Shown here: positions 6,502 to 23,113 of the stretch, in pieces | Layout of the letters: every line of letters starts with the position of its first letter | Position numbering within the stretch: position 1 is the first letter of the stretch | IMG/VR virus record: IMGVR_UViG_3300023179_000110 | Coordinates: 1-62,139 of that record | Origin: a virus | Lineage: Duplodnaviria > Caudoviricetes | Reading direction: 5' to 3' (one strand) | Length of the DNA stretch: 62,139 bases | Notes under the pieces: model-generated | The model's database searches: none | Told to the model about the DNA's origin: nothing | The model's input: only the letters and a program-made list of their open reading frames with translations | Made by a program: the position numbers and the translations under genes

Positions 6502-7267
6502 CTTCGTCAGACACCTTTACATCTTTTTTGGGCTTCTTCTTTTGCCCACCCATAACAGTATCCACATGAACAGTGTTCACTGTAGGACCCGACACGGTAG
6601 ATGAACTGTCTTCTTTAGCAACTGGCAAATCAACTTCAAGACGCTGGGCACGACCACCAATCGAATAACCCATCAACTTTCCAGCCTTGACCATTTCCCA
6701 AGCCCAAGGTTCCCAAACAACGCCAAGGAAAACTGTGTCTTTAGGAAAAGTTACATCTTCCATGGTTCCGTCAGATTTCTGCATGGGAACTGATACTTCG
6801 TAAGGCCACGCCATTACTTCAACCCATTCACCAGCAACGATGTCTTTATTGTGCTGTAAACGAATACGGCGGTCATCTTTACGCACATAATCCCAAACTG
6901 ATTTCTGCAACTCAGCAGAATCTGTCCATTCACCATGAGCATCAACACGGTCAGGAACATACATTGGACCTAGGGTGTATCGGTTTTCGTTGACAGCCTT
7001 GGAAACCAAAGACATTTTTTTAACTGGTGTTTCGATAAATTGGTCAAAAAATCCTTCGCTGTAGGAATCCTCAATGTCATAGTCGGCATCGCCCCATTCA
7101 GCAGGAATAGCCATAGCAATGTCGTAATTTTTTAAAGATTGATAAGTTTCTACAAGGTCATTGTAAATTTTTTTTGTTTCTTCGTTAGAAACATACTTAC
7201 TATTAGACGCTTCAATTCCTGCACAAACTTCCTGCGTCATTAAATCAATAATGCGAGCATCAATCAT
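6488..7267 (-). CDS. XkdF-like putative prohead serine protease with ~85-aa N-terminal extension
   Basis: RYTLGPMYVPDRVDAHGEW...RLQHN...WEMVKAGKLMGYSIGG is the XkdF pattern. Confidence 0.85.
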   Translation of the reverse strand: MIDARIIDLMTQEVCAGIEASNSKYVSNEETKKIYNDLVETYQSLKNYDIAMAIPAEWGDADYDIEDSYSEGFFDQFIETPVKKMSLVSKAVNENRYTLGPMYVPDRVDAHGEWTDSAELQKSVWDYVRKDDRRIRLQHNKDIVAGEWVEVMAWPYEVSVPMQKSDGTMEDVTFPKDTVFLGVVWEPWAWEMVKAGKLMGYSIGGRAQRLEVDLPVAKEDSSSTVSGPTVNTVHVDTVMGGQKKKPKKDVKVSDEDVSD

Positions 7268-9327
7268 TATTTAACTCCCCCTTTCTTAGTTGATGCAATC
7301 AAAACTGGCGGTGCCCCTTCGGGGCGAGTGTCATGATTTGTGTCGAATAACACAAAATTATCAAACTCTTTTGACATCTTTGGCATTATTGAAGACACAG
7401 ATTTGTGATTAGCCAAAAAATTATTTGCTGGAACTAATCCACGATTAGGGTCTTCAATCGCCCTTTGCATGTTTTGTTTCCAAGCCAAATCAATACTTGC
7501 ACTTACATAACAACCGTTAACTTTGTATCCAGCGTTTCTCGCTTTAGCAATTTTTTTGCCCAAACTGGCTTCACTTGAATTTCCAGTTCCATCTAAGAAA
7601 ATGTCCATGCCAGCCTTGGTAGCGGCCGCATCAATTGCTTTACCCAAATCAGATGATTCTTCGTGCGTCCAACCTGCAACATCCAATTTTCTGCCATTGT
7701 CAACAAATACTTGAAAATCTGGCAATTTTGCTTTTAACTCATCCGCATCAATAATAACAGCCTTGCCTTTTTCTGGCAAAATTACACCATGTTCTTTGGC
7801 TAACTCAAGGGCTTGTTGATTCCTTCTAATCGTTCCTTTTCCAGAACCGCCACCGCCACCCATCATGGTAAAAGTTGGGTCACTAGAACGAGGAATTCCT
7901 TTTAAGGCTTCTTTAATAATTTCGGCGTGTAAAGCCTCACGCTCAGGAGTGTAAATGTAATTACCATTTCCATCGTCCATCAAATAATGCCAAAGACCAG
8001 TTGTGTCAGCCGAAATTTCCTCGCCTTTGTATGTAATAGTGCGAGGTTTCGCCAAAACTTCTGGACGATTGCTTCCGTAACCCCAATCGTAGGTTTCAGG
8101 GTCAAAAGATTCGTTTCTTTTAACCTCAACTACATTTTGAGTTTTTAAAAATTCAGCCCATCGGTTATTTAAATCAGAAACAGTTGTTCTATCAACTGAT
8201 TTATTAATAAAATTTTGCCAAGCAGTGCTGTCGTGAATTTCAAGACCGTCAGCAAAGTTTTCACTTGCACCGCCATGTGCCCAGTTTCCGTGCGTTTTTT
8301 GGTCGTGATGTCCATGTTTCAACAATGGAACCGTGCTTAACTGAGGTATTACTGGGTCAACTAAAAGACGGCGATACCTGCGTTTTGCACCATTTAAAGC
8401 ATCAAAAAATCCTGCGTCTGTAACAATTTGGTCAGCATAAACTGGGCTGGTTGACCAATGCTGATTTTTACGGAATTCGTCTAACAATCCATGCAATTCT
8501 TCATGTCGTTTCATGACAGCAGGAATGGCAAAAGGGTTTGAATTCGTGCGTTTTAACTCAAGTCCTTGACCGTAGCCCTCGTTGTAAGACAACCGAATAG
8601 ATTTTTTACTTAAAGTTTTGCCAATCATTTGAAAATCAGAAGCACTTACAGAAGAGCCATGTGCCCAATCGCCGTGAGTTGATTGGTCGTGTTTGCCTTG
8701 CATGTGCTTAGACATGCCATTTAACAAATCTTCAGGAATCACCCAGAACTTGCACAAAGCCATGTGGTCAATTTGACCTTCAACAATCTCACAACCGCCA
8801 CCGCCTTCATAAAAAATGCAGTTGGCACACATCAAACCTTCATCAACAAACGGGTTATCTTCCATGTAATGTGCCCCGTTAGCATCTGAACTCTGATTAA
8901 ATTTGCCAACCGCTTCGGTTAAAGATTCCAAAAACTCGTAAATAGCATTTTGCGTGGGGTTTAATCTATCTTCGGGTTCGCCCTCTTTTTTAACGGTATC
9001 AAACTTTAGGGTGTAGCCATCAACCGTCAAAATAGTGGTTTTTGAAACTAAATCGGGATAACCCAACTCAGCATTGACCGTATCAACTACATCAGCAGGA
9101 ATTCCGTTAAAAGCCTTATTTACGGGGACATTGTTTTCAACGCCTACCTCAATAACAGCCCGATTCCATTCGTCCCCACTATGCCCATGGTCTAAACCAC
9201 GAACCAACAATTCCGTTGTAACAAGGTGGTGGGCTTGAACTTTTACGGGGTCATAAACATCCGCATGCAATGATTTATGCAATTCCTCTAATTGAGCATT
9301 GCTTAATTTGTTTAAATCAAATGACAT
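7267..9327 (-). CDS. Tagged polyprotein: His-rich N-domain, HiPIP-like domain, tag + unknown domain, tag + Zeta-toxin-like P-loop kinase
   Basis: CANC...C...C HiPIP pattern; two HDQxTHGxW tags; GGGGGSGKGT, IIDADELK, HEESS, LDGT Zeta motifs. Confidence 0.85.
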   Translation of the reverse strand: MSFDLNKLSNAQLEELHKSLHADVYDPVKVQAHHLVTTELLVRGLDHGHSGDEWNRAVIEVGVENNVPVNKAFNGIPADVVDTVNAELGYPDLVSKTTILTVDGYTLKFDTVKKEGEPEDRLNPTQNAIYEFLESLTEAVGKFNQSSDANGAHYMEDNPFVDEGLMCANCIFYEGGGGCEIVEGQIDHMALCKFWVIPEDLLNGMSKHMQGKHDQSTHGDWAHGSSVSASDFQMIGKTLSKKSIRLSYNEGYGQGLELKRTNSNPFAIPAVMKRHEELHGLLDEFRKNQHWSTSPVYADQIVTDAGFFDALNGAKRRYRRLLVDPVIPQLSTVPLLKHGHHDQKTHGNWAHGGASENFADGLEIHDSTAWQNFINKSVDRTTVSDLNNRWAEFLKTQNVVEVKRNESFDPETYDWGYGSNRPEVLAKPRTITYKGEEISADTTGLWHYLMDDGNGNYIYTPEREALHAEIIKEALKGIPRSSDPTFTMMGGGGGSGKGTIRRNQQALELAKEHGVILPEKGKAVIIDADELKAKLPDFQVFVDNGRKLDVAGWTHEESSDLGKAIDAAATKAGMDIFLDGTGNSSEASLGKKIAKARNAGYKVNGCYVSASIDLAWKQNMQRAIEDPNRGLVPANNFLANHKSVSSIMPKMSKEFDNFVLFDTNHDTRPEGAPPVLIASTKKGGVK

Positions 9328-9364
9328 TTGAACTCCTCACCGAAAGAATAGCAAACAAGGTTGA

Positions 9365-9436
9365 CTATTGAGGTTCCATCGGCTCAGGCAATTTTCTTGG
9401 GTCAATAATGTCCACTATTTCGTCTTTTTCGGTCAT
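9365..9436 (-). CDS. 23-aa peptide MTEKDEIVDIIDPRKLPEPMEPQ, putative zincin inhibitor
   Basis: Translated by hand; ATGA overlap with the stop of the 9433-10224 zincin. Confidence 0.55.
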   Translation of the reverse strand: MTEKDEIVDIIDPRKLPEPMEPQ

Positions 9437-10224
9437 ACTGGTATTCCTTTGTCTAAATAACCCTGTCTTAAATTATCAGCAACTTCTTTACCTGCCACAT
9501 GCTCCCAAATAAATAATTGATTACGAGCAAATTCAACTCCGTGACCTTCGTATTTATTATCCGCTTTTAACATGGTTGCATAGTGAGCAAGTTCATGAAT
9601 TAAGGTTGATTCATCTTTTGCATAATTTTTGTGAATCAAAATTTCATTAATTTCTTGATAACCTTTACTGCCACTTATTTTTATGCCCCAGCGATGCCTA
9701 CCAGCAAAACTGCCAGACTTTCTTACTGCTATTTTTAACTCAGGAACACGAGAACCATCGCCAAATTCAGCAATAAACCAATCACTGCTGGTAATTTCTT
9801 TGTAAAGATTTTTAATACCTTTTACTGTTCCATCAATGTGTTTTTTACCTAATTCTGAAACTTGTAAATCGTTTGCTGAAGACTGCCAATCGTCAAAATT
9901 TTTACTGTATTGCGTCCACGCCTTTTCGTATGCCTCATAAGAATCAAAATTTTCTCGTTTGGGTGCAACTGGAGGAGTTCCACTATCACGGTCAAATACT
10001 TCAGATTCAGCCTTGTAAATGTCACTTTGATAACGGTCTGAACCCAATTGCAAATCAACTCTGTCCCGAAAAACCAAATTACTACCAGAATCATTGACAG
10101 TTATGTCGTTGTTAGCCCAGTTGCCATGAGTCCTTTGGTCATGTTTGCCAGCAAGATGCTTGAAAACATTATTATTTTCTTCATCTATTAAAAACAAAGA
10201 CATTCTTTCTTTTAATTCACTCAT
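9433..10224 (-). CDS. Tagged SprT-like HExxH metallopeptidase
   Basis: Tag VFKHLAGKHDQRTHGNWA; LIHELAH...HGVEF. Confidence 0.85.
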   Translation of the reverse strand: MSELKERMSLFLIDEENNNVFKHLAGKHDQRTHGNWANNDITVNDSGSNLVFRDRVDLQLGSDRYQSDIYKAESEVFDRDSGTPPVAPKRENFDSYEAYEKAWTQYSKNFDDWQSSANDLQVSELGKKHIDGTVKGIKNLYKEITSSDWFIAEFGDGSRVPELKIAVRKSGSFAGRHRWGIKISGSKGYQEINEILIHKNYAKDESTLIHELAHYATMLKADNKYEGHGVEFARNQLFIWEHVAGKEVADNLRQGYLDKGIPV

Positions 10225-11129
10225 TTAATAAAAACGCCTTCTTCTTCTGTATTAAAATTTTTTGATGCAACAATTAACGGGTCATAAGGCAACTGATTTT
10301 GAATCACTGTTACTTCATAAAAATTATCGTTGATTTTTTCAACTTTTGAAACCGTGTATGTACCAGAAGCAATAACTTCATTGCCGTTTGACACTTCTTC
10401 GCTTTTATTGCTTGTATGTGGAACTAATGGTATTCCACGCAATCCATCAATTTTCATTAAAATGGATGTTTCTGCTGGGTTGCCATAATAATCTTTTGCA
10501 AAAGTTGTTGCCAGTTCTTCATCAGGAGTCCAAGATGCAATTCCTTCTTTAAATGTGGAACCAACCGTTGTTAATTTTTTAACTTGTTCAGAACCCCATT
10601 TACTGAAAGACAAACCTCTGTACATTTTTTCATTTAATGGTTTAGCGGTTGTCAAGGCTAAAAGAATTTGTTTAGTTGAATCAAAAATTTCTTTGTAGTC
10701 AACATCTCTTCTTATTTTGCCATCTTCATCTAATTTTGGATAATAATTGTCTGAAACATTAGTTAATACTCTGTAAGCACTACGAATGTTGTCAACATTG
10801 GCGTATGGGTATTTATTTGTTCCGCCTATCCAAGCATCAGCAAAAGCATTAATCATTGGAATTTGAGAATTATCAGCCCAGTTGCCGTGAGTTGACTGGT
10901 CGTGCTGACCTGCAAGATGTTTTTGAATTTTTTGCGTATCAAGCCAATCTAAAACATCCCCATTGGTCAAAGTAATAATTGAACTCAAAGACACTTTGCG
11001 ACCATCAGCCAATTGAAGCATGGTTTCAGGGGTCAATTCTCCGTCCCAAGACCAAGAACCGCCAAAATCAGGTGCAAGCAACTTAAACATAGTAACCCTT
11101 TTCAATGTGTTCCCCGACAACAACTTCAA
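10221..11129 (-). CDS. PDFGG domain + tag + R-S-E type ADP-ribosyltransferase-like domain (start probably ATG ~11090)
   Basis: MYRGL...IASWT...A..FA...NEVI..G..TV is the VIP2/exotoxin-type ART pattern. Confidence 0.8.
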   Translation of the reverse strand: MKLLSGNTLKRVTMFKLLAPDFGGSWSWDGELTPETMLQLADGRKVSLSSIITLTNGDVLDWLDTQKIQKHLAGQHDQSTHGNWADNSQIPMINAFADAWIGGTNKYPYANVDNIRSAYRVLTNVSDNYYPKLDEDGKIRRDVDYKEIFDSTKQILLALTTAKPLNEKMYRGLSFSKWGSEQVKKLTTVGSTFKEGIASWTPDEELATTFAKDYYGNPAETSILMKIDGLRGIPLVPHTSNKSEEVSNGNEVIASGTYTVSKVEKINDNFYEVTVIQNQLPYDPLIVASKNFNTEEEGVFIK

Positions 11130-14100
11130 TGCCTTTGCCAGCCAACATTTCCTTAGTAGCCTTAGTCAAACTTGTTGATTTTGGAATAACAATTGTGGCA
11201 ACATCATCCAACGATAAACCGCCATGAATTTGAGTTTCAACATAACCGTAAGTAGCAATTTCTCTTAAATCAGCCTTGCCACTGTATCCAGTTATTCCAC
11301 CCCACTCTGGTTTTCCAGTACTAATGCTGTTTTTCCAATTGTAAGTTTTGCCAGAACGATTTGAATTGTTAAAAGTGTTAATTAATAAGCCAAAATGAGT
11401 GTCCCATAAATCATTTACAGAAACTTTGCCATTAGCGTAATCTTCCAGCCAATGAGTTCCATTAAGAAATCCGTCTAAAGAATCGCCAATTGTTGCTGTT
11501 GTTCTATGTTTTACCGAATCTTTAAAAATTACTTGGGCATCGCCATAAGTTGATTCTTTAGAACTGCGTCCTATGACTCCGTAAACGGGACGCTTATCGT
11601 TAGGTGTTTCGCTCGGAATGCCCATAATGTCAAATTCAAATTCATTTCTTCTTTCCATGTATTTTTGCCTAGTAGCCCCTTTTCCAGACAAAGTGGTTTC
11701 ACTAGCAGTTCGATAATGGTCTTCAGTTATGAATTTTTTTAATTTACCTGTACTCATGGTTAAAGAAACATCATTATTATTTGCAATTTCTTGCATTTGG
11801 TCTAACAAACTTTGAGCCACGCCATCTATGACTTCGCCAACAGTTTGCCCACTTGGAAATTTAATTTGACGAATTTTATTTTGAACAAATTTATTTTCCG
11901 CAACAAGATAAGCCCGTGCTGATTGAAAATCTTGTTCAGCCCAAACATTTATGGCTTTTCTTCTCAACTCATCAATGTTTGAATCAGAAAATTCTTTGTT
12001 TTGTTCAATAATTTGTTTTGCCCACCAAGTATTTGCAATAGCCGTATCCATAAATTTTTTAGGGATTTGAGGATAATTTGGGTCGTTAAAAATGGTTTTT
12101 GTCAATTTTTTTATTGCGTCTAAACCCGAAAAATTTTCGGAACTTTTGGATGAATTTTTTAATGCTAAAACCGCATAATAAAATTCTGCTGTGGAAACAG
12201 GTGTTCCAACCCAACTTGTAGAATCTGTTTGCAAAATTCTTGCAATAGGTCCGAAACTGTTAGCAACATCTTCTTCATAAGACATAGCAGGAATTGAAGA
12301 AAAACTTTTTTTTCGCCCTGAAAAATCTAACTCATAAGGTCTGTCGGTTGAATGACCGTGTGCCCAGTTGCCATGACTGGACTGGTCGTGTTGTCCTGCA
12401 AAATGTTTAAAAAAAAACGAATTTACTGGAACCTTGACAATTACTGAGGTTTTGGCAACTTCTTGTAAATCTGTTCCGCCCAAGTCATAATTTCCTCGTC
12501 CGTCATCTCGTTTAACGGCTTCGGCGACTGAGCGATGTTGATTATTTCTTTTTTCGACTGTTCCACCAGTACCTCCTGTTTGAATCTCATCAAAGTTGAC
12601 GACATCCCAAATACTGATTTGGTTACGCCTTCTACCTAACGAAATTGCTTGTTTCTTGTCAACGATTTTGTCCGTAACATCCAAATGAACTCGTTGCTGG
12701 TCTTTTGGTATTTCTACCGTAACACCATTAACCGTTTTGGTTGTTTCGTGCCAAACACCGAGATAAGCACGACCAGAACCTAATTCTGCTTTGTTCTTAA
12801 CCAAGAACGCACCCAGAATTTTGGCTCCTTTATCCTCATTAAAGAAGTCTGATGCCATTACAACGGTGCCGAACTTGTCACTGTTTCGAGATACCATGTA
12901 GCCATCTGGGGGCAGTGAGCCGTCCGTTAACTTGATTGATAAACCACCATTTTCGGCTACTTGACTCAAAACATCATGAACAACTTCTGGTGCAACATGG
13001 CTGTTGAACCTGCGTCCGTGAGTTGATTGGTCGTGTTGACCTTGAAGGTGTTTCTCAACCTCGGTTGATTTAATCTTAGCCCGTAATACCGCAATGTCAA
13101 ATGCCAACATTTTCTTCATGTTTTCTTTATTTGACTCACCAAGAGCAATTGGCTTAATTCCAACGGTTTTATTCCAAGCCAAAACAACTTTAATTAATTC
13201 GTCATGAGGCAAATCAACTTTTAAAGCCTTCATTTTCACATTTTTATGTTTTGGTTTTAAACCAAGAAACAAAGCGGCCGCCCAGCGATGGTGTCCGTCA
13301 ATCACATAATCATCTTTAGAAATAGTAATTGGAGTATCACCAACTCCATCTTTTTCCATTGACCGCATAATTTTTCCAGATTTAGAAGCAGAAATTTCAG
13401 CCTGAATTGGGTGTAGTCCAAAGGGAGCAACATCAACCATTTCAACTTTAACTCCACGGTCTTGCATAGCCTTAATAAAATCATTTTGAGTTCCAGCAGG
13501 AATTTGAGGCATTTTGTCACGCATAATTCCAAGATTGTCCCTTGTGAAATACTGCGTTCCTAAAATTTCCAAATTAGTTAAATCGGGATTATCTTTGCGG
13601 TCAGCCATTGCATCCAACCATGCTGGAGCGTCAATTGGGCTAACAATACCTTCTTCGCCAGCAACTACTTTGTCGTAAGCGGTTTGAACTGGATGTGGAT
13701 ACGGATTGCCTTCGGCAGTGTTTTTACGGTCAACAGCATGTCCGTGATGTCCAGCCCAGTTGCCATGCGTGGCTTGGTCGTGCTGACCTGATAAATGTTT
13801 TTGAACTGCTTGCGGATAGTAAGACCATTCGTACAAAGAATTGCCATCAGTGTAAATTTCATTAGCGTGAACTGTGGTGTGCAAAATGTCGTAATCACCA
13901 AAACGAGCAGTCACACTACTTTCGCCATGTAATTTGGCGTATTCTTCGGAAATAGTAACCCAATCACCAGCATTAACTTTAGTAACGCCTTTGGGTACAG
14001 CACGATAAATGGTCACATGAGCATCGGGTTTATTACGAATACTTACAAGCAAATCATGGATTTTTTTATCTTCAGCCCTATTACTGCCACCGTGCCCATA

Positions 14101-14361
14101 AATTCTGGCACCATCAGAATCATAAACATCTTTTGGGTAAATGTTTCCATTGCCAGTTAAATCGTATGCAGGGGCACCATCTTCGGGTTCTGGAGGACGG
14201 TGACTCATTTGATAATCAGTTTCATTGTTGGCACCGCCATGTGCCCAATCGCCGTGTGAACTCTGGTCGTGTTGTCCTGCAAGATGTTTTTCAACTTTCA
14301 CACCATGTTTAACACCCAAATCGGGGTAAACCACATCAAAAGTCACATCATCTAAAATCAT
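11083..14361 (-). CDS. Tagged polyprotein with four cargo domains: ART-like, ParB/Srx-like, putative SAM-lyase-like, DUF3626-like
   Basis: Four tags; VTIYRAVP..GDWVT..YA..HG..EW; IDGHHRWAA; GYMVS..LGVW..LDVT..NQISIWD; RPVYG..YGD..RTT...DSL..YVETQIHGG. Confidence 0.85.
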   Translation of the reverse strand: MILDDVTFDVVYPDLGVKHGVKVEKHLAGQHDQSSHGDWAHGGANNETDYQMSHRPPEPEDGAPAYDLTGNGNIYPKDVYDSDGARIYGHGGSNRAEDKKIHDLLVSIRNKPDAHVTIYRAVPKGVTKVNAGDWVTISEEYAKLHGESSVTARFGDYDILHTTVHANEIYTDGNSLYEWSYYPQAVQKHLSGQHDQATHGNWAGHHGHAVDRKNTAEGNPYPHPVQTAYDKVVAGEEGIVSPIDAPAWLDAMADRKDNPDLTNLEILGTQYFTRDNLGIMRDKMPQIPAGTQNDFIKAMQDRGVKVEMVDVAPFGLHPIQAEISASKSGKIMRSMEKDGVGDTPITISKDDYVIDGHHRWAAALFLGLKPKHKNVKMKALKVDLPHDELIKVVLAWNKTVGIKPIALGESNKENMKKMLAFDIAVLRAKIKSTEVEKHLQGQHDQSTHGRRFNSHVAPEVVHDVLSQVAENGGLSIKLTDGSLPPDGYMVSRNSDKFGTVVMASDFFNEDKGAKILGAFLVKNKAELGSGRAYLGVWHETTKTVNGVTVEIPKDQQRVHLDVTDKIVDKKQAISLGRRRNQISIWDVVNFDEIQTGGTGGTVEKRNNQHRSVAEAVKRDDGRGNYDLGGTDLQEVAKTSVIVKVPVNSFFFKHFAGQHDQSSHGNWAHGHSTDRPYELDFSGRKKSFSSIPAMSYEEDVANSFGPIARILQTDSTSWVGTPVSTAEFYYAVLALKNSSKSSENFSGLDAIKKLTKTIFNDPNYPQIPKKFMDTAIANTWWAKQIIEQNKEFSDSNIDELRRKAINVWAEQDFQSARAYLVAENKFVQNKIRQIKFPSGQTVGEVIDGVAQSLLDQMQEIANNNDVSLTMSTGKLKKFITEDHYRTASETTLSGKGATRQKYMERRNEFEFDIMGIPSETPNDKRPVYGVIGRSSKESTYGDAQVIFKDSVKHRTTATIGDSLDGFLNGTHWLEDYANGKVSVNDLWDTHFGLLINTFNNSNRSGKTYNWKNSISTGKPEWGGITGYSGKADLREIATYGYVETQIHGGLSLDDVATIVIPKSTSLTKATKEMLAGKGIEVVVGEHIEKGYYV

Positions 14362-15059: not shown

Positions 15060-15128
15060 AAAACCTCCTGAAATACTAAACAAGAATACCTCAGAAGCAT
15101 TACCTCAAAAGGTCAACTCGCTTTAGAA

Positions 15129-16843: not shown

Positions 16844-16849
16844 ACTAAA

Positions 16850-18529
16850 TCACTTCTTCCATTTGTACTGCATACCCCATTTATCTTCTTTAGCCAAAGC
16901 CTGAACAATAGGAATTTCAGACTTACCATCAGTCATAAACCATTCAGCAAACGCTTCAGCATAACCCTCGCCAGTATTGCTTCTACCATACGGACTTAAC
17001 TGATTTTCATGAGCCATTAACATTAAACCTGTAGTTTGTTCGTTTTTGTAACCGCTTCCAGCCATTGTTCCATTGCCACCTTTATGGAAAAGGGCATCGT
17101 AATTAGTTGCATGACCCCATTCATGAGCCAAAAAGTATTCCATAGCAAAAAATTGTTTGGCATTGGCTGAAGGCATCCAACTCTGACGAGCCGTATCTTC
17201 ATCAGCGTAATGATTCATGTCTTCAGGACGAACAGCAATAATAACTTTGTGAATTGCAGGTTTTACTAATTCACGAACAGTTCTAAGTTGTTTTTCATCA
17301 AATACCGTTTTCATTGTTTCTGGTTGAGATAAATTAACAGTCCAACCTCGTTGCATTTCGGAATCGTAATCAAAATCATTACTTACAACAATTTTTACTT
17401 CAGACATTGGTGACAACGGTGCAATTGTTTGCAAATCATGAACTAAAGCCAACACATCTCGTTTTTGGTCTTCAGTAATGTTGTCCCTGTTGTCAAAAAA
17501 AGTTGCAAAACTAGAACCGTTAATTTTCGATTCATGAACATCAGCGTTTTCAAGTACAAGGTCATTTACGCCAAAAGCATGCCTAAAATTAGTTTTTGTT
17601 TTAGCCCAATTGCCGTGGGTAGATTGGTCATGCTGACCTGCAAGATGTTTACTTACATCAGGCAACTCAATAAAAGAAGGGGGTGGTGTTTTACTAAAAG
17701 TATCAGCAATTAAAATACTTGAACCCATAGTTTTAACTAAATTAAAAACACCAGTATCCCAACCATACTTTGAAGCCATTTCTTGAACATGAGGCAAAGA
17801 GGTTTGTCCAGCCGAAAAAAACCATTCCGCAAAAGCCTCAGCATAAGACTCCATTGTGTTTTCCATCCCATAAGTAGTTTGTCCTTCTTTTTTCCATTTC
17901 CATTCTGATTTGCTTTGAGCAAGATAATTTTTGTATTCATCATGAGCCAACTGGTCATCAACGAGTTGGCTTTGTGTTCTTTTATCAAGAGCGTGACCCC
18001 ATTCGTGGGCTAAAACAGACATGATGTAATTTGCTTTTGAATCTGCACGGGCAGGGTCGCCTCCCCATAAATTATGTTCTTCCTGTATTGCTGTTTCCAT
18101 ACTAAGAACTATTTCGCCTTTACCCAAAGTACAAAAACCTACAACACCAGACAAATGACCTTTGGCTTTGTAGTCTTCCATTTTGCTGTCATCAAATTCA
18201 ACACGCATTCCTTCAATTGGAAAATGCGTTTGCAATTCGGCAATAGTTTGATAAATAAGTTTTTTTGTATCATCACTTATTGTTCCATTTACTTCTTCAA
18301 AACCAACAAAAACTCTAGGAAATTCACCAGAAACGATAACATCGTGAGCAATGCCCACCAGTGTTTCATCAGTTATGTCTTGTACTGTGTATTTTGCTTC
18401 GCCATGTGCCCAGTTTCCGTGCGAACTCTGGTCATGCTGTCCAGCAAGATGTTTATTTACAGATAAAGAACGCAACCAAAAAGCATTAGCACCAGCATCA
18501 ATGTCAATTATCAACTTAACCACCACCAA
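16850..18529 (-). CDS. Tagged polyprotein with two lethal-factor-like HEWGH metallopeptidase domains
   Basis: Two tags; LAHEWGH ... YG..N..E.YAEAFAEW occurs twice. Confidence 0.88.
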   Translation of the reverse strand: MVVVKLIIDIDAGANAFWLRSLSVNKHLAGQHDQSSHGNWAHGEAKYTVQDITDETLVGIAHDVIVSGEFPRVFVGFEEVNGTISDDTKKLIYQTIAELQTHFPIEGMRVEFDDSKMEDYKAKGHLSGVVGFCTLGKGEIVLSMETAIQEEHNLWGGDPARADSKANYIMSVLAHEWGHALDKRTQSQLVDDQLAHDEYKNYLAQSKSEWKWKKEGQTTYGMENTMESYAEAFAEWFFSAGQTSLPHVQEMASKYGWDTGVFNLVKTMGSSILIADTFSKTPPPSFIELPDVSKHLAGQHDQSTHGNWAKTKTNFRHAFGVNDLVLENADVHESKINGSSFATFFDNRDNITEDQKRDVLALVHDLQTIAPLSPMSEVKIVVSNDFDYDSEMQRGWTVNLSQPETMKTVFDEKQLRTVRELVKPAIHKVIIAVRPEDMNHYADEDTARQSWMPSANAKQFFAMEYFLAHEWGHATNYDALFHKGGNGTMAGSGYKNEQTTGLMLMAHENQLSPYGRSNTGEGYAEAFAEWFMTDGKSEIPIVQALAKEDKWGMQYKWKK

Positions 18530-19721
18530 AATGACTCATGATGCCAGCCAAAGCAGACCTAGGTTGACTTACCCAAACATTTGCTTGAATTGTTCCACCA
18601 AGTAAAACATGTTCTTGTTCAACTTCTGCACCTAACCCAGTAGCGTAAGTAGAAAAAACATTTTCTACAGGAACTACAATTTTAGTAACAGCATTGCCAA
18701 AAGTTTTAGCCACACTTTCCTTACTTGTCCAGCAACTCAAAGGTTGCATGCGAATTGTTTGTTTTGATTCTGTTCCATACAAACTTTCATCAAGTAAATC
18801 AAAGCCACGCCATAACTCCACAGCCTTGATGCCTTCGTCAGCAAAAGTTTTTTGAGTTTCCTCATACATAGCCGTAGTAATAGACTGCAAAACATTATGA
18901 TTTTTAACTAAAATTTTTGCAACTTGAGATGCAATTTTTTCAGGATGCCCAGTAACAAAAGTATTTTTCAACCCAAAATCCTCACGGACGACATCATTTA
19001 ACGCATAATACAAAGGATTAGAGTTCTGCAACTTAGCCCATTGTTCCATGACTTCAACAACAGCAAATTGCTTAATCATTTTTTCTTTTTGAGCAACAGT
19101 TTGCGTTTTATTATTAGTTCCATTTAAAGAAGAATTAGTTCTATCAACCCAAAGAGTGTTGTAATAAGACCATTTAAAAACAGCGTTAGGGTCATTGATG
19201 GCTTCTATTATTTGTTGAGGAGTTGTAAAAGTTGCAGTTCCTCCTGTTTTTACCGATTCTTCAGATACATAATTGATGCCATTAGAAAAACCTTCTGGAA
19301 TAATCATTGGTGTATTTAAAAATTCTTCAATAGGAACATCTGTAAGATGTTTTACAACATTGTTGGATGCAATCCATACCGTTTTATCTTTAGATGAAAA
19401 ATTACTGGAATTGCCAACTTGTTCATAAAATTCTTTAGTTGATGGTCTGGGAGCAATACTGTAATAATCTGCTTCAACATCATGTTGTGCCCAGTTCCCG
19501 TGTGAACTCTGGTCGTGTTGTCCTGACATGTGCTTGGCAAAAGCATCAACTACTGTCCAATTACCAACTTTTTGCCATTTATCAAATAGCCCAACTGTGC
19601 TTGTTGTGCCATTTTTCTGGCGTAAATACCCGTATGGATAACCGTCAGCATCAACGAAATCAAAAATCAACTCGGCTCCGTCAGCCCTTACAGCGTAAAC
19701 ACTACCTTTGGTTAGTTCCAT
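18516..19721 (-). CDS. 60-aa N-domain + tag + R-S-E ADP-ribosyltransferase-like domain
   Basis: LWRGF...LSCWTS...A..FG...EQEHVLL (ExE). Confidence 0.82.
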   Translation of the reverse strand: MELTKGSVYAVRADGAELIFDFVDADGYPYGYLRQKNGTTSTVGLFDKWQKVGNWTVVDAFAKHMSGQHDQSSHGNWAQHDVEADYYSIAPRPSTKEFYEQVGNSSNFSSKDKTVWIASNNVVKHLTDVPIEEFLNTPMIIPEGFSNGINYVSEESVKTGGTATFTTPQQIIEAINDPNAVFKWSYYNTLWVDRTNSSLNGTNNKTQTVAQKEKMIKQFAVVEVMEQWAKLQNSNPLYYALNDVVREDFGLKNTFVTGHPEKIASQVAKILVKNHNVLQSITTAMYEETQKTFADEGIKAVELWRGFDLLDESLYGTESKQTIRMQPLSCWTSKESVAKTFGNAVTKIVVPVENVFSTYATGLGAEVEQEHVLLGGTIQANVWVSQPRSALAGIMSHFGGG

Positions 19722-19723
19722 AA

Positions 19724-22700
19724 TTAATACTCTACCACCCTAATTCCCTTGGGAACAAGAGGGCTGATGTCAGCAAAACTGTCGGAAGGAATGTAAACAG
19801 CCTCAACATCACTCAATTTTGCTCCATCGTGAATTTGGGCTTCAAAATAAGAACCTTCATTAAGAAATCCAATTTCATAAGATTCATTGTTCCAGCCTTC
19901 GTCTTTTGCTATGTTGTACAGAATTCTGTCTGAGGCTCGCCAAGCATCGTAAGGGGTAATTTCTTTTTGAGTCATAGAAACAGGAATGCAACCAGTTCCC
20001 AAAGAATCCCCAACTGTCACGGTTGACCGAGGTTTAACATTATCTTTAAAAACTATTCGGATGTCGCCATACTGCCACGGTCCATTAATTAAAACATTTT
20101 CATCTAAATCATCTTCCGAAACATAACCATAAAGAGGGCGTTTAGAAACAGGTTCGTTTATGGGAATACTTTGACAACGCAACTCACTAGCAAGACGGCT
20201 TGCTTTACTAAATAACCCATTGCTTTTTTGTGTTTCAAATTGTGTTTTAAATCTTTGGTCATCGCTTTGTAATAACTCAGTAAACGATTCTTCGTCAATA
20301 GCCATGCAAATTTTTCCATCTGTTTGCATGTTTTTTAAATCATCAGCAATAAAACTTTGATAAAGCAACTCAGAATTATCTAATTTGCGATAAGTGGCTA
20401 ATTTAACTACTTCGTCAGATAATCTACGAAGCATTGCTTCATACATAATGACTGCGGAATTGTCTTGAGTAATAACTAAAGCATTTCTTTCCCCCTTAAA
20501 TGTGTTATCGTCACCACCACCAGTTTTTAAAAAAACAGCATTTGGATAAACTTTTTTAACTTGTTCTTGCAATTCTTTGCAAATTTTAGAATTAGCGAAA
20601 TCATCTGTATGAAAAAATTGCACCAGTATGTCTTCAGATAAACTTCCAGCACTTAACTGATAAGAGTCTGTACTAATTTTGTCAGCCAAATCAATAGAAA
20701 ATTTCTTAACAGCATTTAAAAATGTTGTTGTGTCAGCAAAATCATGTACCGCACCGTGCGACCAATTGCCGTGAGTGGATTGGTCATGTTGTCCTAAATA
20801 ATGTTTTGACAATGAACTTGGATTAGTCAAAACAGAAGTAAACGCATCTACTCGGTCAAACGGAATTGGCAAATTTGTTTTTTCATAGCCATCAAAATCC
20901 AAACGCCAATTGTCAACGGGGTCATAACGAAAACGAACAATTCGATAATTGTCCCCATTGGTAGGAGCGTAAAATGCTCCCGTTGAACGATGACTGGCAA
21001 CTGTTCCTTCGTTATTATCCAAATTCATTCTGGCATCTGATTGAAAAAATCCTCGTTCTTTTGCTTGATTGAACTCGGCTTCCGATACGACACGGTACAA
21101 ATGTTTCAAAGGTTTTCGAGCAATAATTTTTCCGTAAATTGGAGAAGATACTCTTTCGGAATCTGGAACTTTAATCCATTCTTGCGGAGTTACTGCCATT
21201 ACTTCTAAAACTTCAGGAGCAGATTGACCATCCCGTGTAGAAGCCATACGCAATGCAGTTTGTCCTTCAATCAAGTTGCCTCTTGAATCGTATCTTTCAG
21301 GATGTGCATTACGAGGAGATTGTAAAGATTTAGATTCTTCCGTCAAAATAGCATTCCAAGCAGATTCATTATCGGGTGAATTTAATTGAATTTCTTTGCC
21401 ATCAGCCCAATTGCCGTGGGTAGATTGGTCGTGCTGACCAGCCAAATGTTTTTCAACTGAATTAGGATTTTTAACTACTAAAGCACCAGCATTTAAAACA
21501 ACCATTTCTCGGTCAGGCAAACTTGTATCGGCTGGGTCATAAAGCATTGGACTGTCATTAATTGCGTCATAGCCCATTGCCAAAGCCATAAGATTTCTAG
21601 TTGTTAATCTATCAGTAAAAAACCAACTTGTTGGAAAATCTGTTAAAGCCGTATGACGAAGTAAATTAATTTGAGATTCTAGCAATCCACTATTTGCCAA
21701 TACCAAATTTGCTTCAGAAGAAGGAATAGTTAAAATTTTTGCATTAGGTTTAAAAGCCATTTTAACTATTTGTTTTTCATCACTTTTGTAACCCCAAATT
21801 TCAGCCTCTTTTTTCGTATGAGCACCATAAAGACCAATTCCATTTCTACCCATAGAAATGTAAGGCAACTCCGAAGCCATAAATTGTTTGATTTTATCTT
21901 CAGCAGATAATCTAATGTTGTCTGAAGTTTCCAAATCAAAAGCAGAACCTTGCTGAAAAGTTCGCCAAAATTCCATACCCTGTGAAGTATCACCAAAAGT
22001 AGGTTTACCAGTTTTGCCTGTGGCTTTTAAAACATCTTGCAAAGTTTTACGCCAAACATCAAGGCTGTCGTATGGTTTATTCGCGTTAATTATTGACGCA
22101 AGTTGCTGAATGCTAATTTCATTTGACCCATCACCATCAGCCCAGTTACCGTGTGAACTCTGGTCATGTTTACCCTGAAGATGTTTAACCAAAAAAGACT
22201 TAACGGGAACTTTTACAATTACTGAAGATTTAGCAACATTATTTAATAACGCTTCAGTATCAATGTTTGAATACTGTTTAACCCAAGCAAGTTCTTGTTC
22301 ATACTCTGGAATTGGATTTCCGAAAAGTTCAAATTTTCCTCTTTCTCTAGCAAGTTTTATTTTTGTTGCTTTTTGTTCTCTTGTTGCTGGATGAGTACTT
22401 GGAAAATGAACAACAATTCCAGCCTTTGCACCTGCTTGAAGAATTTTTTCTTTATTTATTTTTGAAACTTGTCCGTTAATAATAATTTCTTGAACATCTT
22501 TAGGAGTTAAACCACCAAAAATTTGAAACTCTGGATAATCATCAGAGGTGGTGTAAATAATGTCATTTGGCAAACTTTCTTTGTCCCCTAAAATTTGTTC
22601 ATTAGTAATTTTACCTGTTGCTGAAACAGGAGTTTGCTGATAAAGCAAACTATCTGAATTAGTAAAAGTTGAGCGTTTTTTTACTTCATCTTTTAAAACA

Positions 22701-23113
22701 ACAAGCACCTCACCAAAATGTTCGGTAGCCCCCATCAAAAAAATACCGTTAGGTTCAATGGCAGAAGCAAAAATAGGCCGCATTGAAGCAGGAGCATCAA
22801 GAGGAATCCCCCAAGTTCTTAACTCTGATTGTTTTCTTCTATCAATCCCTAATGAACCTCTAGTTTCACCACTTTCGTGATAATTTTTGAACTTACCTTC
22901 ATTGAGAAAAGCCAAAACTGCTTCTTCTGGCATCTGAATACCCATAGTCGCGTCACGATGTTTTCTAAAATTTTCAAAATACCATTTATGAGATTGCCTA
23001 ATCATTGTTTTTAATTTTTGAGCATTACTATCAGCCCAGTTGCCGTGTGAACTTTGGTCATGTTGACCTGCAAGATGCTTGGATACGGGAACTACAACAT
23101 AAACAGATTTCAT
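19724..23113 (-). CDS. Tagged polyprotein with four cargo domains: DUF3626-like, PARP-like ART, ART-like, DUF3626-like
   Basis: Four tags; RPIF..FGEV..RSTFT.SDS..EFQIFGG; GIGLY..GYDAI..EMVVLN; LYRVVSEAEF; RPLYGY..YGDI..YFEAQIHDG. Confidence 0.85.
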   Translation of the reverse strand: MKSVYVVVPVSKHLAGQHDQSSHGNWADSNAQKLKTMIRQSHKWYFENFRKHRDATMGIQMPEEAVLAFLNEGKFKNYHESGETRGSLGIDRRKQSELRTWGIPLDAPASMRPIFASAIEPNGIFLMGATEHFGEVLVVLKDEVKKRSTFTNSDSLLYQQTPVSATGKITNEQILGDKESLPNDIIYTTSDDYPEFQIFGGLTPKDVQEIIINGQVSKINKEKILQAGAKAGIVVHFPSTHPATREQKATKIKLARERGKFELFGNPIPEYEQELAWVKQYSNIDTEALLNNVAKSSVIVKVPVKSFLVKHLQGKHDQSSHGNWADGDGSNEISIQQLASIINANKPYDSLDVWRKTLQDVLKATGKTGKPTFGDTSQGMEFWRTFQQGSAFDLETSDNIRLSAEDKIKQFMASELPYISMGRNGIGLYGAHTKKEAEIWGYKSDEKQIVKMAFKPNAKILTIPSSEANLVLANSGLLESQINLLRHTALTDFPTSWFFTDRLTTRNLMALAMGYDAINDSPMLYDPADTSLPDREMVVLNAGALVVKNPNSVEKHLAGQHDQSTHGNWADGKEIQLNSPDNESAWNAILTEESKSLQSPRNAHPERYDSRGNLIEGQTALRMASTRDGQSAPEVLEVMAVTPQEWIKVPDSERVSSPIYGKIIARKPLKHLYRVVSEAEFNQAKERGFFQSDARMNLDNNEGTVASHRSTGAFYAPTNGDNYRIVRFRYDPVDNWRLDFDGYEKTNLPIPFDRVDAFTSVLTNPSSLSKHYLGQHDQSTHGNWSHGAVHDFADTTTFLNAVKKFSIDLADKISTDSYQLSAGSLSEDILVQFFHTDDFANSKICKELQEQVKKVYPNAVFLKTGGGDDNTFKGERNALVITQDNSAVIMYEAMLRRLSDEVVKLATYRKLDNSELLYQSFIADDLKNMQTDGKICMAIDEESFTELLQSDDQRFKTQFETQKSNGLFSKASRLASELRCQSIPINEPVSKRPLYGYVSEDDLDENVLINGPWQYGDIRIVFKDNVKPRSTVTVGDSLGTGCIPVSMTQKEITPYDAWRASDRILYNIAKDEGWNNESYEIGFLNEGSYFEAQIHDGAKLSDVEAVYIPSDSFADISPLVPKGIRVVEY

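What the first reader, a model, noticed from the sequence alone, without database searches (positions are those of the whole stretch)
7267..23113. 16-kb array of tagged effector polyproteins inside the head-morphogenesis operon: candidate capsid-packaged cargo system
Seen: nine genes between MuF/portal and XkdF protease/Dps/scaffold/capsid contain 17 copies of one peptide, phi-x-K-H-(L/M/F/Y)-x-G-(Q/K)-HDQ-x-(S/T)-HG(N/D)WA. Each copy starts a new 120-450 aa domain; two genes carry four each. Recognisable cargo: 4 DUF3626-like, 2 R-S-E ARTs, about 3 further ART-like domains, 4 HExxH zincins, a Zeta kinase, a ParB-like domain and a possible SAM lyase. The region is visibly more AT-rich than the core genes. 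Established: MuF-linked polymorphic toxins and injected phage ARTs (T4 Alt) exist, but those are single fusions. Inference: the tag is a portable head-targeting or ejection signal that loads a quarter-genome arsenal of host-takeover/anti-defence enzymes into the virion. I do not know of a described system with this tag.
Basis: partly seen in the sequence, partly recalled or inferred. Interest (0 to 1): 0.95.

Follow-up and report, generated by a model that had tools for sequence, protein, structure and literature searches.

The report
Junction-tagged capsid cargo proteins of phage
An uncultured phage gives a quarter of its genome to strings of enzyme domains, each preceded by the same 16-residue peptide, which most likely marks them to be cut apart and loaded into the virus head for injection into the host.

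Summary

The tag is family-wide. It occurs in 74 of 80 IMG/VR loci encoding a related protease, always on the coding strand and always between MuF and the scaffold gene. It also marks 986 protein clusters in a 1.84-billion-protein library, with up to 20 copies per protein.

AlphaFold2 places every tag modelled (4 of 4) in a disordered linker between confident domains. BLAST homology between modules starts and stops at tags.

The tag is a lineage form of a much wider junction, phi-x-K-[FY]-NP-x-HD-x-x-GRF. That junction joins effector domains to MuF, portal and prohead proteases in other phages.

So these are "polyvalent" head-cargo effectors, a known concept (Iyer et al. 2017), and not only "single fusions". 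The junction signal itself appears in no paper I could search.

My reading is a combined cut-and-load signal. Packaging and cleavage remain untested. First-stage notes of this scan recorded the same tag in two other genomes, and a follow-up described the NP-type junction elsewhere.

The parts
24123..25574 (-). portal protein (Mu-type)
   Evidence: Pfam Portal_Mu 134.8 bits
23110..24117 (-). stand-alone MuF-like head protein; overlaps the first cargo gene by 4 nt
   Evidence: Pfam Phage_Mu_F 39.3 bits; PHROG head morphogenesis families
19724..23113 (-). cargo polyprotein 1 (1129 aa). 12-aa leader, then 4 tags (23033-23080, 22139-22186, 21404-21451, 20759-20806). Two modules give sub-threshold DUF3626 hits.
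18516..19721 (-). cargo gene 2 (401 aa). 63-aa leader, 1 tag (19488-19535), DRAT-like ADP-ribosyltransferase.
   Evidence: DRAT 31 bits, cut-off 25
16850..18529 (-). cargo polyprotein 3 (559 aa). 2 tags (18407-18454, 17603-17650), each followed by a LAHEWGH zincin module.
   Evidence: ATLF 19.6 bits, below cut-off
15311..16843 (-). cargo gene 4 (510 aa). 37-aa leader, 1 tag (16688-16735), DUF3626-like module.
   Evidence: DUF3626 25.6 bits, cut-off 27
14358..15083 (-). cargo gene 5 (241 aa). 31-aa leader, 1 tag (14946-14993), HEISH zincin-like module.
11083..14361 (-). cargo polyprotein 6 (1092 aa). Tags at 14242-14289, 13753-13800, 13006-13053 (degenerate, ends HGRRF) and 12361-12408. Modules include a ParB/Srx-like domain, the most widely conserved module of the family (unknown fold), and a DUF3626-like module.
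10221..11129 (-). cargo gene 7 (302 aa). 70-aa leader, 1 tag (10875-10922), unknown module; the protein ends in V-F-I-K.
9433..10224 (-). cargo gene 8 (263 aa). 22-aa leader, 1 tag (10114-10161), SprT-like HExxH zincin.
   Evidence: residues 1-45 pLDDT below 50; residues 50-263 above 90
7267..9327 (-). cargo polyprotein 9 (686 aa). Untagged 207-aa first module, then tags at 8662-8709 and 8278-8319 (short form KHGHHDQKTHGNWA). The last module is a Zeta-toxin-like kinase.
6488..7267 (-). XkdF-type prohead protease. A variable 85-aa N-terminal extension is joined to the protease domain by an invariant [VLMI]-x-K90.
   Evidence: Pfam Peptidase_S78_2 46.2 bits; alignment A2, K90 invariant in 30 of 30
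6004..6501 (-). Dps/ferritin-like gene in the protease-to-scaffold slot; it has no tag
   Evidence: Pfam Ferritin 53.5 bits; this slot holds a tagged acidic protein in 52 of 80 relatives
4939..5727 (-). scaffolding protein; its N-terminus ...GVDRPAHLHDGWLVMK41-SA is invariant
   Evidence: alignment A3, 30 sequences; phrog_13547
4541..4933 (-). small head protein (decoration or scaffold-like)
   Evidence: phrog_673; weak Pfam XM1_gp53
3550..4527 (-). major capsid protein
   Evidence: phrog_1005, 336.8 bits
40695..41204 (-). extra tagged gene outside the array (169 aa; tag 41097-41144), directly after the large terminase
40069..40677 (-). paralogous gene with a weak tag (KHGSGDQSAHGNWA, 40567-40608)
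   Evidence: (22.6 bits)

Best explanation
The nine genes encode 'polyvalent' head-cargo proteins: strings of single-domain enzymes. Some are recognisable (an ADP-ribosyltransferase, zincin peptidases, a Zeta-like kinase, ParB/Srx-like and DUF3626-like domains) and several are unknown. They are made late, together with the head proteins.

The 16-residue tag is a disordered linear motif at the N-terminal border of every module. It is the local form of a widespread junction, phi-x-K-[FY]-NP-x-HD-x-x-GRF, that links effector domains to MuF, portal and prohead proteases in many phages.

My reading is a two-part cut-and-load signal.
- The phi-x-K part is the site where the capsid maturation protease (here XkdF) cuts the chains into single domains inside the procapsid. 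The same phi-x-K precedes the protease's own catalytic domain and lies in the scaffold N-terminus.
- The H...HDQ..HG.WA part, left at the new N-terminus, docks or retains each module in the head until it leaves with the DNA.

Shown: the motif, its positions, its predicted disorder, its role as a module border, its confinement to the head module, and its family-wide spread.

Inferred: packaging, cleavage, which protease cuts, and ejection.
For: Position and number.
- The window has 17 tags in nine genes plus 2 tags elsewhere. There are none on the other strand and none in the control.
- In 80 loci with a related protease there are 413 tags, 0 of them on the opposite strand. 358 lie upstream of the protease and 55 lie between protease and scaffold (in 52 loci). 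None lies after the scaffold start. None lies before the end of MuF in the 40 loci that reach MuF.
- Five complete or near-complete relatives have 18, 13, 14, 13 and 10 copies. In each they sit on one strand in a single 10-16 kb block; controls give 0.

Module border.
- Of 13,769 BLAST alignments (HSPs) between tagged proteins, 5,339 start within -5..+4 residues of the tag's K. 3,693 end at +10..+19.
- The SprT-like module aligns from K-H onward in 21 sequences, while the upstream sequence cannot be aligned. The module occurs both as a separate gene and as the last module of a polyprotein.

Disorder.
- All 4 tags modelled by AlphaFold2 fall in pLDDT<50 segments, between domains scoring 70-98.

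Cut-site logic.
- In 432 unique tag contexts K-H is invariant. The residue two before K is V/L/I/M in over 90% of them.
- An invariant [VLMI]-x-K precedes the protease domain in 30 of 30 relatives, although everything upstream of it varies. The scaffold has an invariant W-L-V-M-K.
- Distant XkdF fusions show the same pattern: TILK|TDDDKR and TIYK|ADDDKR.
- Relatives without tags carry extra domains fused directly to MuF or to the protease N-terminus (L050, L087, L115, Laroye gp17/gp18).

The wider junction.
- A scan for [FY]NPxHDxxGRF found at least 120 stretches in IMG/VR. In the 80 loci held, K sits at -1 in 80% of motifs and V/I/L at -3 in 71%.
- Of 91 ORFs bearing this motif, 9 contain MuF, 11 a portal domain, 7 XkdF, 2 S78 and 2 DUF2213. 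Their cargo families overlap those of the HDQ set: ADPrib_exo_Tox, DUF3626, topoisomerase IB and GNAT.
- One polyprotein (L072) uses both junction types at equivalent places.
- Tags persist in MuF-fused proteins, where targeting should be unnecessary (P0019, P0049).

Scale.
- 986 cluster representatives match at E<=1e-3 and 293 at E<=1e-10. There are up to 20 tags in one 7059-aa protein. P0065 is 9 x (tag + ART).
Against: - There is no direct evidence here that any tagged protein is in the virion, is cut, or is ejected.
- Sixteen strongly conserved residues are far more than a protease site usually needs.
- Separate single-domain genes (9433-10224, 14358-15083, 40695-41204) keep a leader plus a tag although nothing needs to be cut off them. 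That argues for a loading or other role, at least in addition to cutting.
- The residue before His is Y in P0049 and L in P0030, so Lys is not universal.
- The cousin junction occurs with three different protease families, so the recogniser need not be XkdF.
- The cargo itself contains four zincin peptidases. The 2017 paper proposed such peptidases as the processing enzymes.
- All candidate receptors (portal, MuF, protease, scaffold, capsid protein) also exist in relatives without tags, so co-occurrence cannot name the partner.
Confidence: 0.5

Rival explanations
1. Pure capsid-targeting or ejection address. The tag binds a procapsid component and loads each protein. It is not a cleavage site, and the polyproteins stay intact.
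For: Separate single-domain genes carry an N-terminal leader plus a tag. Two of them are encoded away from the array, after the terminase. Relatives without tags have cargo-like domains fused directly to MuF or to the protease. N-terminal capsid targeting signals are established for T4 IPIII and P1 DarB (PMC9024508, passages). The tag is disordered.
Against: One tag per junction is redundant for targeting an intact chain of up to 20 modules. Tags and the NP-type junction persist in proteins that are already fused to MuF, portal or protease. The invariant phi-x-K shared with the protease's own junction and with the scaffold is left unexplained.
Confidence: 0.2
2. The tag is a processing site, but it is cut by the cargo's own zincin metallopeptidases (as Iyer et al. 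proposed for MPTase domains) or by another enzyme, not by the XkdF prohead protease.
For: The array holds four HExxH modules. The SprT-like module recurs across the family: 21 distinct homologues were aligned, and 5 of 96 scanned tagged ORFs reach the Pfam SprT-like model. PMC5512222 argues that zincin MPTases process polyvalent proteins (passages). The NP-type junction is not tied to one prohead protease family.
Against: P0065, which is 9 x (tag + ART), and P0066 show no peptidase domain in the chain itself. The phi-x-K element is shared with the protease pro-junction and with the scaffold, which are classic substrates of prohead proteases.
Confidence: 0.1
3. The tag is a demarcation or function motif unrelated to head loading. 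It could be a conserved border that promotes cassette exchange, like the pre-toxin motifs of polymorphic toxins (recalled). Or it could be a His-rich N-terminal peptide that acts only after injection, for example in metal binding, activation or localisation in the host.
For: Homology breaks at tags, and modules are shuffled between genes and genomes. The HDQ form has three His and one Asp. Module order differs among close relatives.
Against: Synonymous sites in the tag are free, apart from Asp=GAC. That bias is explained by genome-wide avoidance of GATC, so there is no DNA-level constraint. The NP-type cousin has only one His, so a metal site is not conserved. Strict confinement to the MuF-scaffold interval argues for a link to the head.
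Confidence: 0.12
4. The tagged proteins are late-expressed but are not packaged at all. For example, they could be released at lysis as toxins against competitors or grazers. The latter is the 'Trojan horse' reading given to ARTs of freshwater phages.
For: PMC6802176 (passages) reads VIP2-like ARTs in 24 freshwater phages as anti-eukaryote toxins. No virion data exist for this family.
Against: The genes are translationally coupled within the head operon, between MuF and the protease. Fusions of the same junction and cargo types to portal, MuF, protease and even capsid proteins place them physically in heads. Cargo types such as ParB/Srx-like, topoisomerase IB, NUDIX and Acb1-like domains act on bacterial processes.
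Confidence: 0.05

Closest known systems
Phage-type polyvalent proteins (Iyer, Burroughs, Anand, de Souza, Aravind 2017, J Bacteriol; PMC5512222; abstract and passages read)
   Same: They are multi-domain effector chains (2-15 domains) in phages with a portal-terminase system, linked to MuF. They are predicted to be packed into the head and injected. They are rich in ARTs, zincin peptidases and ParB-like domains, with processing into units proposed. Tag-bearing relatives carry ART-PolyVal in 5 of 62 hits and MuF in 2 of 62.
   Different: That paper's main text mentions no shared inter-domain peptide. The words HDQ, interdomain, spacer, short motif and peptide motif each occur 0 times; its supplements were not visible to me. 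Here the chains are broken into nine genes plus two outliers, and every module carries the same tag. None of the window's own proteins reaches a PolyVal or LPD Pfam model.
T4 internal proteins and Alt, with the capsid targeting sequence and the gp21 prohead protease (as described in PMC9024508, section 3.3; details of the T4 site are recalled)
   Same: A short N-terminal peptide loads diverse proteins into the prohead and ends at a prohead-protease site. The cargo is injected and counters host defences.
   Different: T4's signal is a leader of about 10 residues that is removed, with one per protein. Here the conserved part lies after the putative cut and is repeated at every domain junction. 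No sequence likeness was tested.
P1 Dar system / DarB capsid targeting signal (PMC9024508; abstract and section 3.3 passages)
   Same: Anti-restriction proteins are packed into the head. An N-terminal signal of 30 residues or fewer is sufficient to load a reporter.
   Different: The authors found no consensus among the Dar N-termini. Here a single consensus marks about 19 modules per genome and about 1000 protein clusters.
MuF polymorphic toxins (Jamet et al. 2017, BMC Biol; PMC5576092)
   Same: They are variable toxin domains in the head module, tied to MuF.
   Different: They are defined by a direct MuF-toxin fusion. Here MuF is a separate 335-aa gene. That paper's main text has 0 occurrences of motif, linker, cleav, junction or boundary.
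NP-type junction phi-x-K-[FY]-NP-x-HD-x-x-GRF
   Same: It has the same build: a hydrophobic residue, x, K, an aromatic residue or His, ..., HD, ..., G-x-aromatic, a small residue, then a Gly-rich stretch. It occupies the same place, the N-terminal border of effector modules in head-module proteins. It goes with the same cargo families. Both types occur in one polyprotein (L072).
   Different: The spacing and letters differ: HDQxxHGxW against HDxxGRF. The window itself has no NP-type copy.
Encapsulin cargo-loading peptides; pre-toxin border motifs of polymorphic toxins (both recalled, not tested)
   Same: Short portable peptides address cargo to an HK97-fold shell, or conserved motifs mark the border of exchangeable toxin domains.
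   Different: The sequences are unrelated and the systems differ. They are analogies only.

Membership tests
Phage-type polyvalent proteins (Iyer et al. 2017) | Two or more unrelated effector domains in one polypeptide | tested here: met
   Five of the nine genes have 2-4 tagged modules, with different Pfam/PHROG matches per module. AlphaFold2 shows two separate folded domains in 11083-14361, residues 175-672.
Phage-type polyvalent proteins (Iyer et al. 2017) | Encoded by a phage with a portal-terminase system, in or next to the head module or MuF | tested here: met
   The array lies between MuF (23110-24117) and the prohead protease. The window is a complete virus record.
Phage-type polyvalent proteins (Iyer et al. 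2017) | Characteristic domain repertoire (ART, zincin MPTase, ParB-like, PolyVal/LPD families) | tested here: inconclusive
   DRAT-type ART, SprT-like zincin and a ParB/Srx-like domain are present. No window protein reaches ART-PolyVal, MPTase-PolyVal or an LPD model. ART-PolyVal is present in 5 of 62 tag-bearing relatives.
Phage-type polyvalent proteins (Iyer et al. 2017) | Present in the virion and delivered with the DNA | not testable with these tools
   This needs virion proteomics or an injection assay.
T4-type capsid-targeting-sequence cargo | A short N-terminal signal that is sufficient for loading into the prohead | not testable with these tools
   The first tags lie 12-70 residues from the start in 8 of 9 genes, but most copies are internal. 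Sufficiency needs a reporter experiment.
T4-type capsid-targeting-sequence cargo | Cleavage by the prohead protease at the end of the signal | not testable with these tools
   There is indirect evidence only: the phi-x-K element is shared with the protease pro-junction and with the scaffold.
MuF polymorphic toxins (Jamet et al. 2017) | An N-terminal MuF domain fused to a C-terminal toxin domain | tested here: not met
   The window's MuF is a separate 335-aa protein with no extra domain. Fusions do exist in tag-bearing relatives P0019 and P0049.
MuF polymorphic toxins (Jamet et al. 2017) | An adjacent immunity gene | not tested
   No search for immunity genes was made.
NP-type head-cargo junction (unnamed) | Literal motif [FY]-N-P-x-H-D-x-x-G-[RK]-F preceded by phi-x-K | tested here: not met
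   There are 0 copies in the window and 2 in relative L072, next to divergent HDQ-type tags. The relation is one of shared build, place and cargo, not of identical letters.

The most novel reading that the evidence does not exclude
The HDQ tag and its NP-type cousins form a general, portable 'address and scissor' code of tailed phages. Any domain that follows phi-x-K-(H/F)...HD...G-x-(W/F) is taken into the procapsid, cut free by the maturation protease, and injected with the DNA. If so, the injected proteome of thousands of uncultured phages could be read directly from sequence, and foreign proteins could be loaded into capsids by adding about 25 residues.
Probability: 0.35. Interest if true: 0.85.

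Novelty: new variant of a known kind. Interest (0 to 1): 0.7.

Why it matters
Which phage proteins travel inside the head and enter the cell with the DNA is known for only a few model phages. For P1 the authors found no consensus signal (PMC9024508).

A conserved junction peptide could serve as a sequence handle for this hidden 'first-strike' proteome. It marks 10-20 modules per genome and about 1000 protein clusters. It links up with a still wider NP-type junction on MuF, portal and protease fusions.

It would also reframe the ADP-ribosyltransferases of freshwater actinophage-like genomes. These have been read as anti-grazer toxins (PMC6802176). Here they appear as head-delivered host-takeover or anti-defence enzymes.

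It could give a simple tag for loading proteins into capsids.

Finally, it makes a concrete test possible: one reporter fusion and one protease mutant.

Tried and rejected
Complex prediction. I folded the protease domain (residues 92-259, alignment A2) with a 38-residue tag peptide (alignment A1, residues 8-45). Result: no verdict (ipSAE 0.01, 0.01; mark 0.32; controls not run). This is neither for nor against binding. Only one job was allowed, so scaffold, capsid protein, portal and MuF were not tried.

Close cultured relatives.
- Megablast of 3000-27000 against GenBank phages gave no match. So did tblastn with the 241-aa cargo gene.
- The nearest cultured phages are the Arthrobacter Laroye group (portal 57-58% identity, protease about 54%). 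Laroye has no tag in 9-22 kb.
- Actinomycetia phage DSL-LC01 has none of either type in the 30 kb examined.
- tblastn with a 29-aa NP-type peptide found only 2 records, in a portal and a prohead protease. BLAST is a poor tool for such short motifs.

Covariation test. I wanted to know whether lineages whose tags read Y-H or L-H (P0049, P0030) also change the K at the protease and scaffold junctions. I could not get their contigs.
- The search for related loci in metagenomes found nothing.
- The Y-H DNA pattern found nothing in IMG/VR or in metagenomes.

Ideas dropped.
- DNA-level function of the tag. The only synonymous bias is Asp=GAC in 428 of 443 tag contexts, and it is explained by the absence of GATC from the genome.
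- Asn-Pro autocleavage of the NPxH kind. The HDQ form has no N-P.
- Ni-assisted S/T-x-H hydrolysis. The needed S/T position is not conserved.
- A conserved metal site. The NP-type has a single His.
- Prophage origin. Of the 7 hits in 185,579 species' genomes, true tags occur only on 3 Actinomycetota MAG contigs.

Fold searches. The SprT-like model gave only weak zincin rows in Foldseek (SPRTN probability 0.75, E 0.32). The second domain of model 2 found no clear fold. The ESM Atlas gave only unnamed viral clusters at 0.86-0.88.

Curated models. No Pfam or NCBIfam model covers the tag. phrog_2859 (function unknown) covers it at profile positions 264-290.

Literature. Letter-string searches (HGNWA, HDQSSHG, HDQSTHG, HGSWA, HDQKTHG; NPYHD, NPNHD, NPHHD, FNPYH, YNPYH) returned nothing relevant. 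Searches on capsid targeting plus prohead protease plus cargo, on XkdF and on HK97 cleavage gave no description of this motif. Supplements of PMC5512222 were not visible and might show it in alignments.

Full report
WHAT IS THERE.
The window is a complete 62,139-bp virus record. On the minus strand the genes run in this order:
- portal (24123-25574);
- MuF (23110-24117);
- nine tightly packed or overlapping genes (23113 down to 7267);
- XkdF-type prohead protease (6488-7267);
- a Dps/ferritin-like gene;
- scaffold;
- a small head protein;
- major capsid protein.

A regex and an HMM built from the copies find 16 strict copies and one degenerate copy of the peptide in the nine genes. Two genes carry four each. 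The underlying DNA pattern occurs 17 times on the coding strand. It occurs 0 times on the other strand and 0 times in the reversed-pattern control. Two further copies lie in two small paralogous genes (40069-41204) directly after the large terminase.

CARGO.
Per-module Pfam and PHROG scans support the following:
- a Zeta-toxin-like kinase (74.7 bits);
- a SprT-like zincin (28.5 bits, cut-off 25.6);
- a DRAT-type ADP-ribosyltransferase (31 bits, cut-off 25);
- four DUF3626-like segments, all below the cut-off (best 25.6 against 27);
- four credible HExxH sites.

A ParB/Srx-like domain is supported by PHROG, by Foldseek (5k5d, probability 0.99, E 0.012) and by VIA-align (Z 6.4, 83-93 residues aligned). 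A second R-S-E ART, the further ART-like domains and a SAM lyase are not supported by anything I ran. About half of the modules remain without a name.

THE TAG IS A FAMILY TRAIT OF THE HEAD MODULE.
- A back-translated pattern found 31 stretches in IMG/VR, each with arrays of tags.
- Of 286 IMG/VR loci encoding a relative of the protease, the best 80 were held. 74 of these have at least one tag.
- The 80 loci hold 413 tags in all, and all 413 are on the protease's strand. 358 lie upstream of the protease and 55 lie between protease and scaffold (in 52 loci). None lies beyond the scaffold start. None lies before the end of MuF in the 40 loci that reach MuF.
- Three of the six loci without tags have almost no upstream DNA. 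Two (L048, L072) have divergent tags such as KHPGHPDQKVHGRR. One (L050) has none and instead has extra domains fused to MuF and to the protease.
- Five complete or near-complete relatives carry 18, 13, 14, 13 and 10 copies. In each they form one block of 10-16 kb on one strand.
- A profile of 80 tags run against 1.84 billion cluster representatives finds 986 proteins at E<=1e-3 and 293 at E<=1e-10. The top hit is a 7059-aa protein with 20 matched stretches. P0065 is nine repeats of tag plus ADP-ribosyltransferase.
- In 185,579 species' genomes the pattern found true tags only on three Actinomycetota MAG contigs. This is therefore a feature of free phage genomes, probably of actinobacterial hosts. 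The nearest cultured phages infect Arthrobacter and lack the tag.

ANATOMY OF THE TAG.
In 432 unique contexts K-H is invariant. 222 contexts have four residues and 202 have two residues before HDQ. The residue two before K is V/L/I/M in over 90%. HDQ, [ST]-H-G and W-A are near-invariant, and a Gly-rich stretch follows.

The tag is the border of exchangeable modules. Of 13,769 alignments between tagged proteins, 5,339 begin within five residues of the K. 3,693 end just after the next tag. The SprT-like module aligns from K-H onward in 21 sequences with unalignable leaders. It occurs either as its own gene or as the last module of a polyprotein.

AlphaFold2 puts all four modelled tags in pLDDT<50 segments, flanked by confident domains. 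These are residues 1-45 of gene 9433-10224, and segments 1-25/31-44, 260-281 and 427-498 of the 498-residue piece of gene 11083-14361. An invariant yet disordered peptide is what one expects of a linear motif read by another protein.

A WIDER JUNCTION.
One relative (L072) uses VVVKFNPNHDARGRF and KFNPHHDSKGRF in the same chain, at places equivalent to its HDQ-type tags. In the 80 loci held there are 110 motifs, with K at -1 in 80% and V/I/L at -3 in 71%.

I scanned 91 motif-bearing ORFs against Pfam.
- Head-protein domains: MuF in 9, portal domains in 11, XkdF in 7, S78 in 2, DUF2213 in 2, capsid domains in 2.
- Cargo domains: ADPrib_exo_Tox 8, ART-PolyVal 4, DUF3626 3, 2H 3, NUDIX 2, glutamine deamidase 2, Acb1 2, topoisomerase IB 1.

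In L138 and L160 the motif lies 16-30 residues after the MuF domain.

96 HDQ-tagged ORFs show an overlapping cargo list: ADPrib_exo_Tox 17, Hva1_TUDOR 10, Zeta 6, SprT-like 5, DUF3626 2, GNAT 2, topoisomerase IB 1, MuF 1, XkdF 2.

The two motifs share their build, their place and their cargo. I read the window's tag as a lineage form of this junction.

HOW IT MOST LIKELY WORKS.
Three observations point to cutting.
- There is one tag per junction, up to 20 in a chain.
- The tag persists where the chain is already fused to MuF (P0019, P0049), or to portal or protease in the NP-type. There loading needs no extra signal.
- The phi-x-K element recurs, invariant, just before the protease's own catalytic domain (K90 in 30 of 30, although everything upstream varies). 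It also recurs in the scaffold N-terminus (W-L-V-M-K41) and before the XkdF domain of distant fusions.

Two observations point to loading as well.
- Separate one-domain genes keep a leader and a tag, including two genes outside the array.
- In MuF-fused P0019, and in the family's most conserved internal module (13006-13053), the tag keeps KHLxGxHDQxxH but loses the N-W-A end. This hints that the two halves do different jobs.

I therefore favour a cut-and-load signal, with phi-x-K as the protease site and the HDQ..HG.WA half as the docking part (confidence 0.5).

The rivals are pure targeting (0.2), cutting by the cargo's own zincins (0.1), a border or function motif unrelated to the head (0.12), and no packaging at all (0.05).

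Against my reading:
- Lys is Y or L in other lineages.
- The conserved stretch is long for a protease site.
- Nothing here shows packaging or cleavage directly.

COMPARISON WITH WHAT IS KNOWN.
The concept is not new. Iyer et al. 2017 described phage polyvalent proteins of 2-15 domains, tied to MuF and predicted to be head-packaged, injected and processed. Their 2022 survey repeats this for ARTs, Nudix and 2H domains fused to MuF, portal and the capsid protease.

What I could not find in print is the shared junction peptide.
- The main texts of PMC5512222 and PMC5576092 do not mention it.
- Letter-string searches of the library return nothing relevant.
- No Pfam or NCBIfam model covers it.
- For P1 the authors state that no consensus exists among the Dar N-termini.

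Within this scan, first-stage notes recorded the same tag in two other genomes. An earlier follow-up described the NP-type junction with a similar reading. These are notes, not independent evidence. I reached the NP-type link from L072 before reading them.

VERDICT.
This is a real, strongly non-random, family-wide feature. It is a new variant (a shared junction signal) of a known kind (head-packaged polyvalent effectors). Interest is 0.7. The decisive tests are virion N-terminal proteomics and a tag-reporter in recombinant procapsids with a protease-dead control.

Noticed in passing
window 1-62139 (whole record): Extreme avoidance of four-base palindromes. Seven are completely absent; observed counts, with the maximal-order Markov expectation in brackets: ACGT 0 (212), AGCT 0 (207), ATAT 0 (105), CCGG 0 (115), GATC 0 (159), GCGC 0 (85), TATA 0 (76). 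Two more are nearly absent: CGCG 3 (63) and GGCC 23 (159). Relatives show lineage-specific subsets: AGCT is 0 in 15 of 15 metagenomic loci checked and GATC is 0 in 13 of 15. Arthrobacter phage Laroye shows none of this. The avoidance explains why the tag's Asp codon is GAC in 428 of 443 contexts.
   Followed up: partly
window 40069-41204 (-): Two small paralogous genes directly after the large terminase. Each has a helical leader (…LRTRLEK / …LAEKLEK), then a tag and a Gly/Asn-rich linker. They are the only tagged genes outside the MuF-protease array. The strict DNA pattern finds no such outliers in five complete relatives.
   Followed up: partly
window 6004-6501 (-); L091 10929-11201; L070 10525-11295: The slot between protease and scaffold holds an untagged Dps/ferritin-like gene in the window and its three closest relatives. 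In 52 of 80 related loci this slot holds at least one tag. Where I read it, the tagged gene is a small 'tag + very acidic tail' protein, often preceded by or fused to an Hva1_TUDOR-like domain. Whether Dps is cargo is unknown.
   Followed up: partly
window 4939-5727 (-), residues 14-43: The scaffold N-terminus RKMVNLxIEETSGVDxPAHLHxGWLVMK-SA is invariant in 30 relatives. From memory, it resembles the last conserved strand motif of S78-type prohead proteases. It ends in phi-x-K.
   Followed up: no
L115 9818-10606; L050 9215-10471; L087; L119 (Laroye gp17, gp18): In relatives with few or no tags, extra domains are fused directly to the protease N-terminus or to MuF, joined by the same phi-x-K. 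In L115 the extra domain is ParB-like, with a DGHH motif. In Laroye gp18 the fused N-terminal part is annotated 'RNA ligase'.
   Followed up: partly
P0063, P0064, P0065, P0066 (library proteins): Giant tagged chains exist: 7059 aa with 20 tag matches, and 3023 aa with 10. P0065 is nine repeats of tag plus an ADPrib_exo_Tox domain. P0066 has eight tags with six ART domains and a GNAT domain.
   Followed up: partly
window 16733-16843 and 17648-17770 (-): The 37-aa leader of gene 15311-16843 (…KIGCTFGLDKPVAKTIFVVPPLSLVK) resembles the tail that follows the first zincin inside gene 16850-18529 (…ILIADTFSKTPPPSFIELPDVSK). This suggests that gene borders are fissions of a longer chain just upstream of a tag.
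   Followed up: partly
window 25647-27228 (-): A small SAM-methyltransferase-fold gene overlaps a C5 cytosine DNA methylase just upstream of the portal (Pfam). An earlier first-stage note proposes that the pair makes 5-carboxymethylcytosine. I did not examine this.
   Followed up: no
literature: PMC6802176: VIP2-like ADP-ribosyltransferases in 24 freshwater phage genomes, some predicted to infect Actinobacteria, are read there as 'Trojan horse' toxins against eukaryotic grazers. In this family, ART domains sit behind head-cargo tags (17 of 96 tagged ORFs), which suggests delivery into the bacterial host instead.
   Followed up: no
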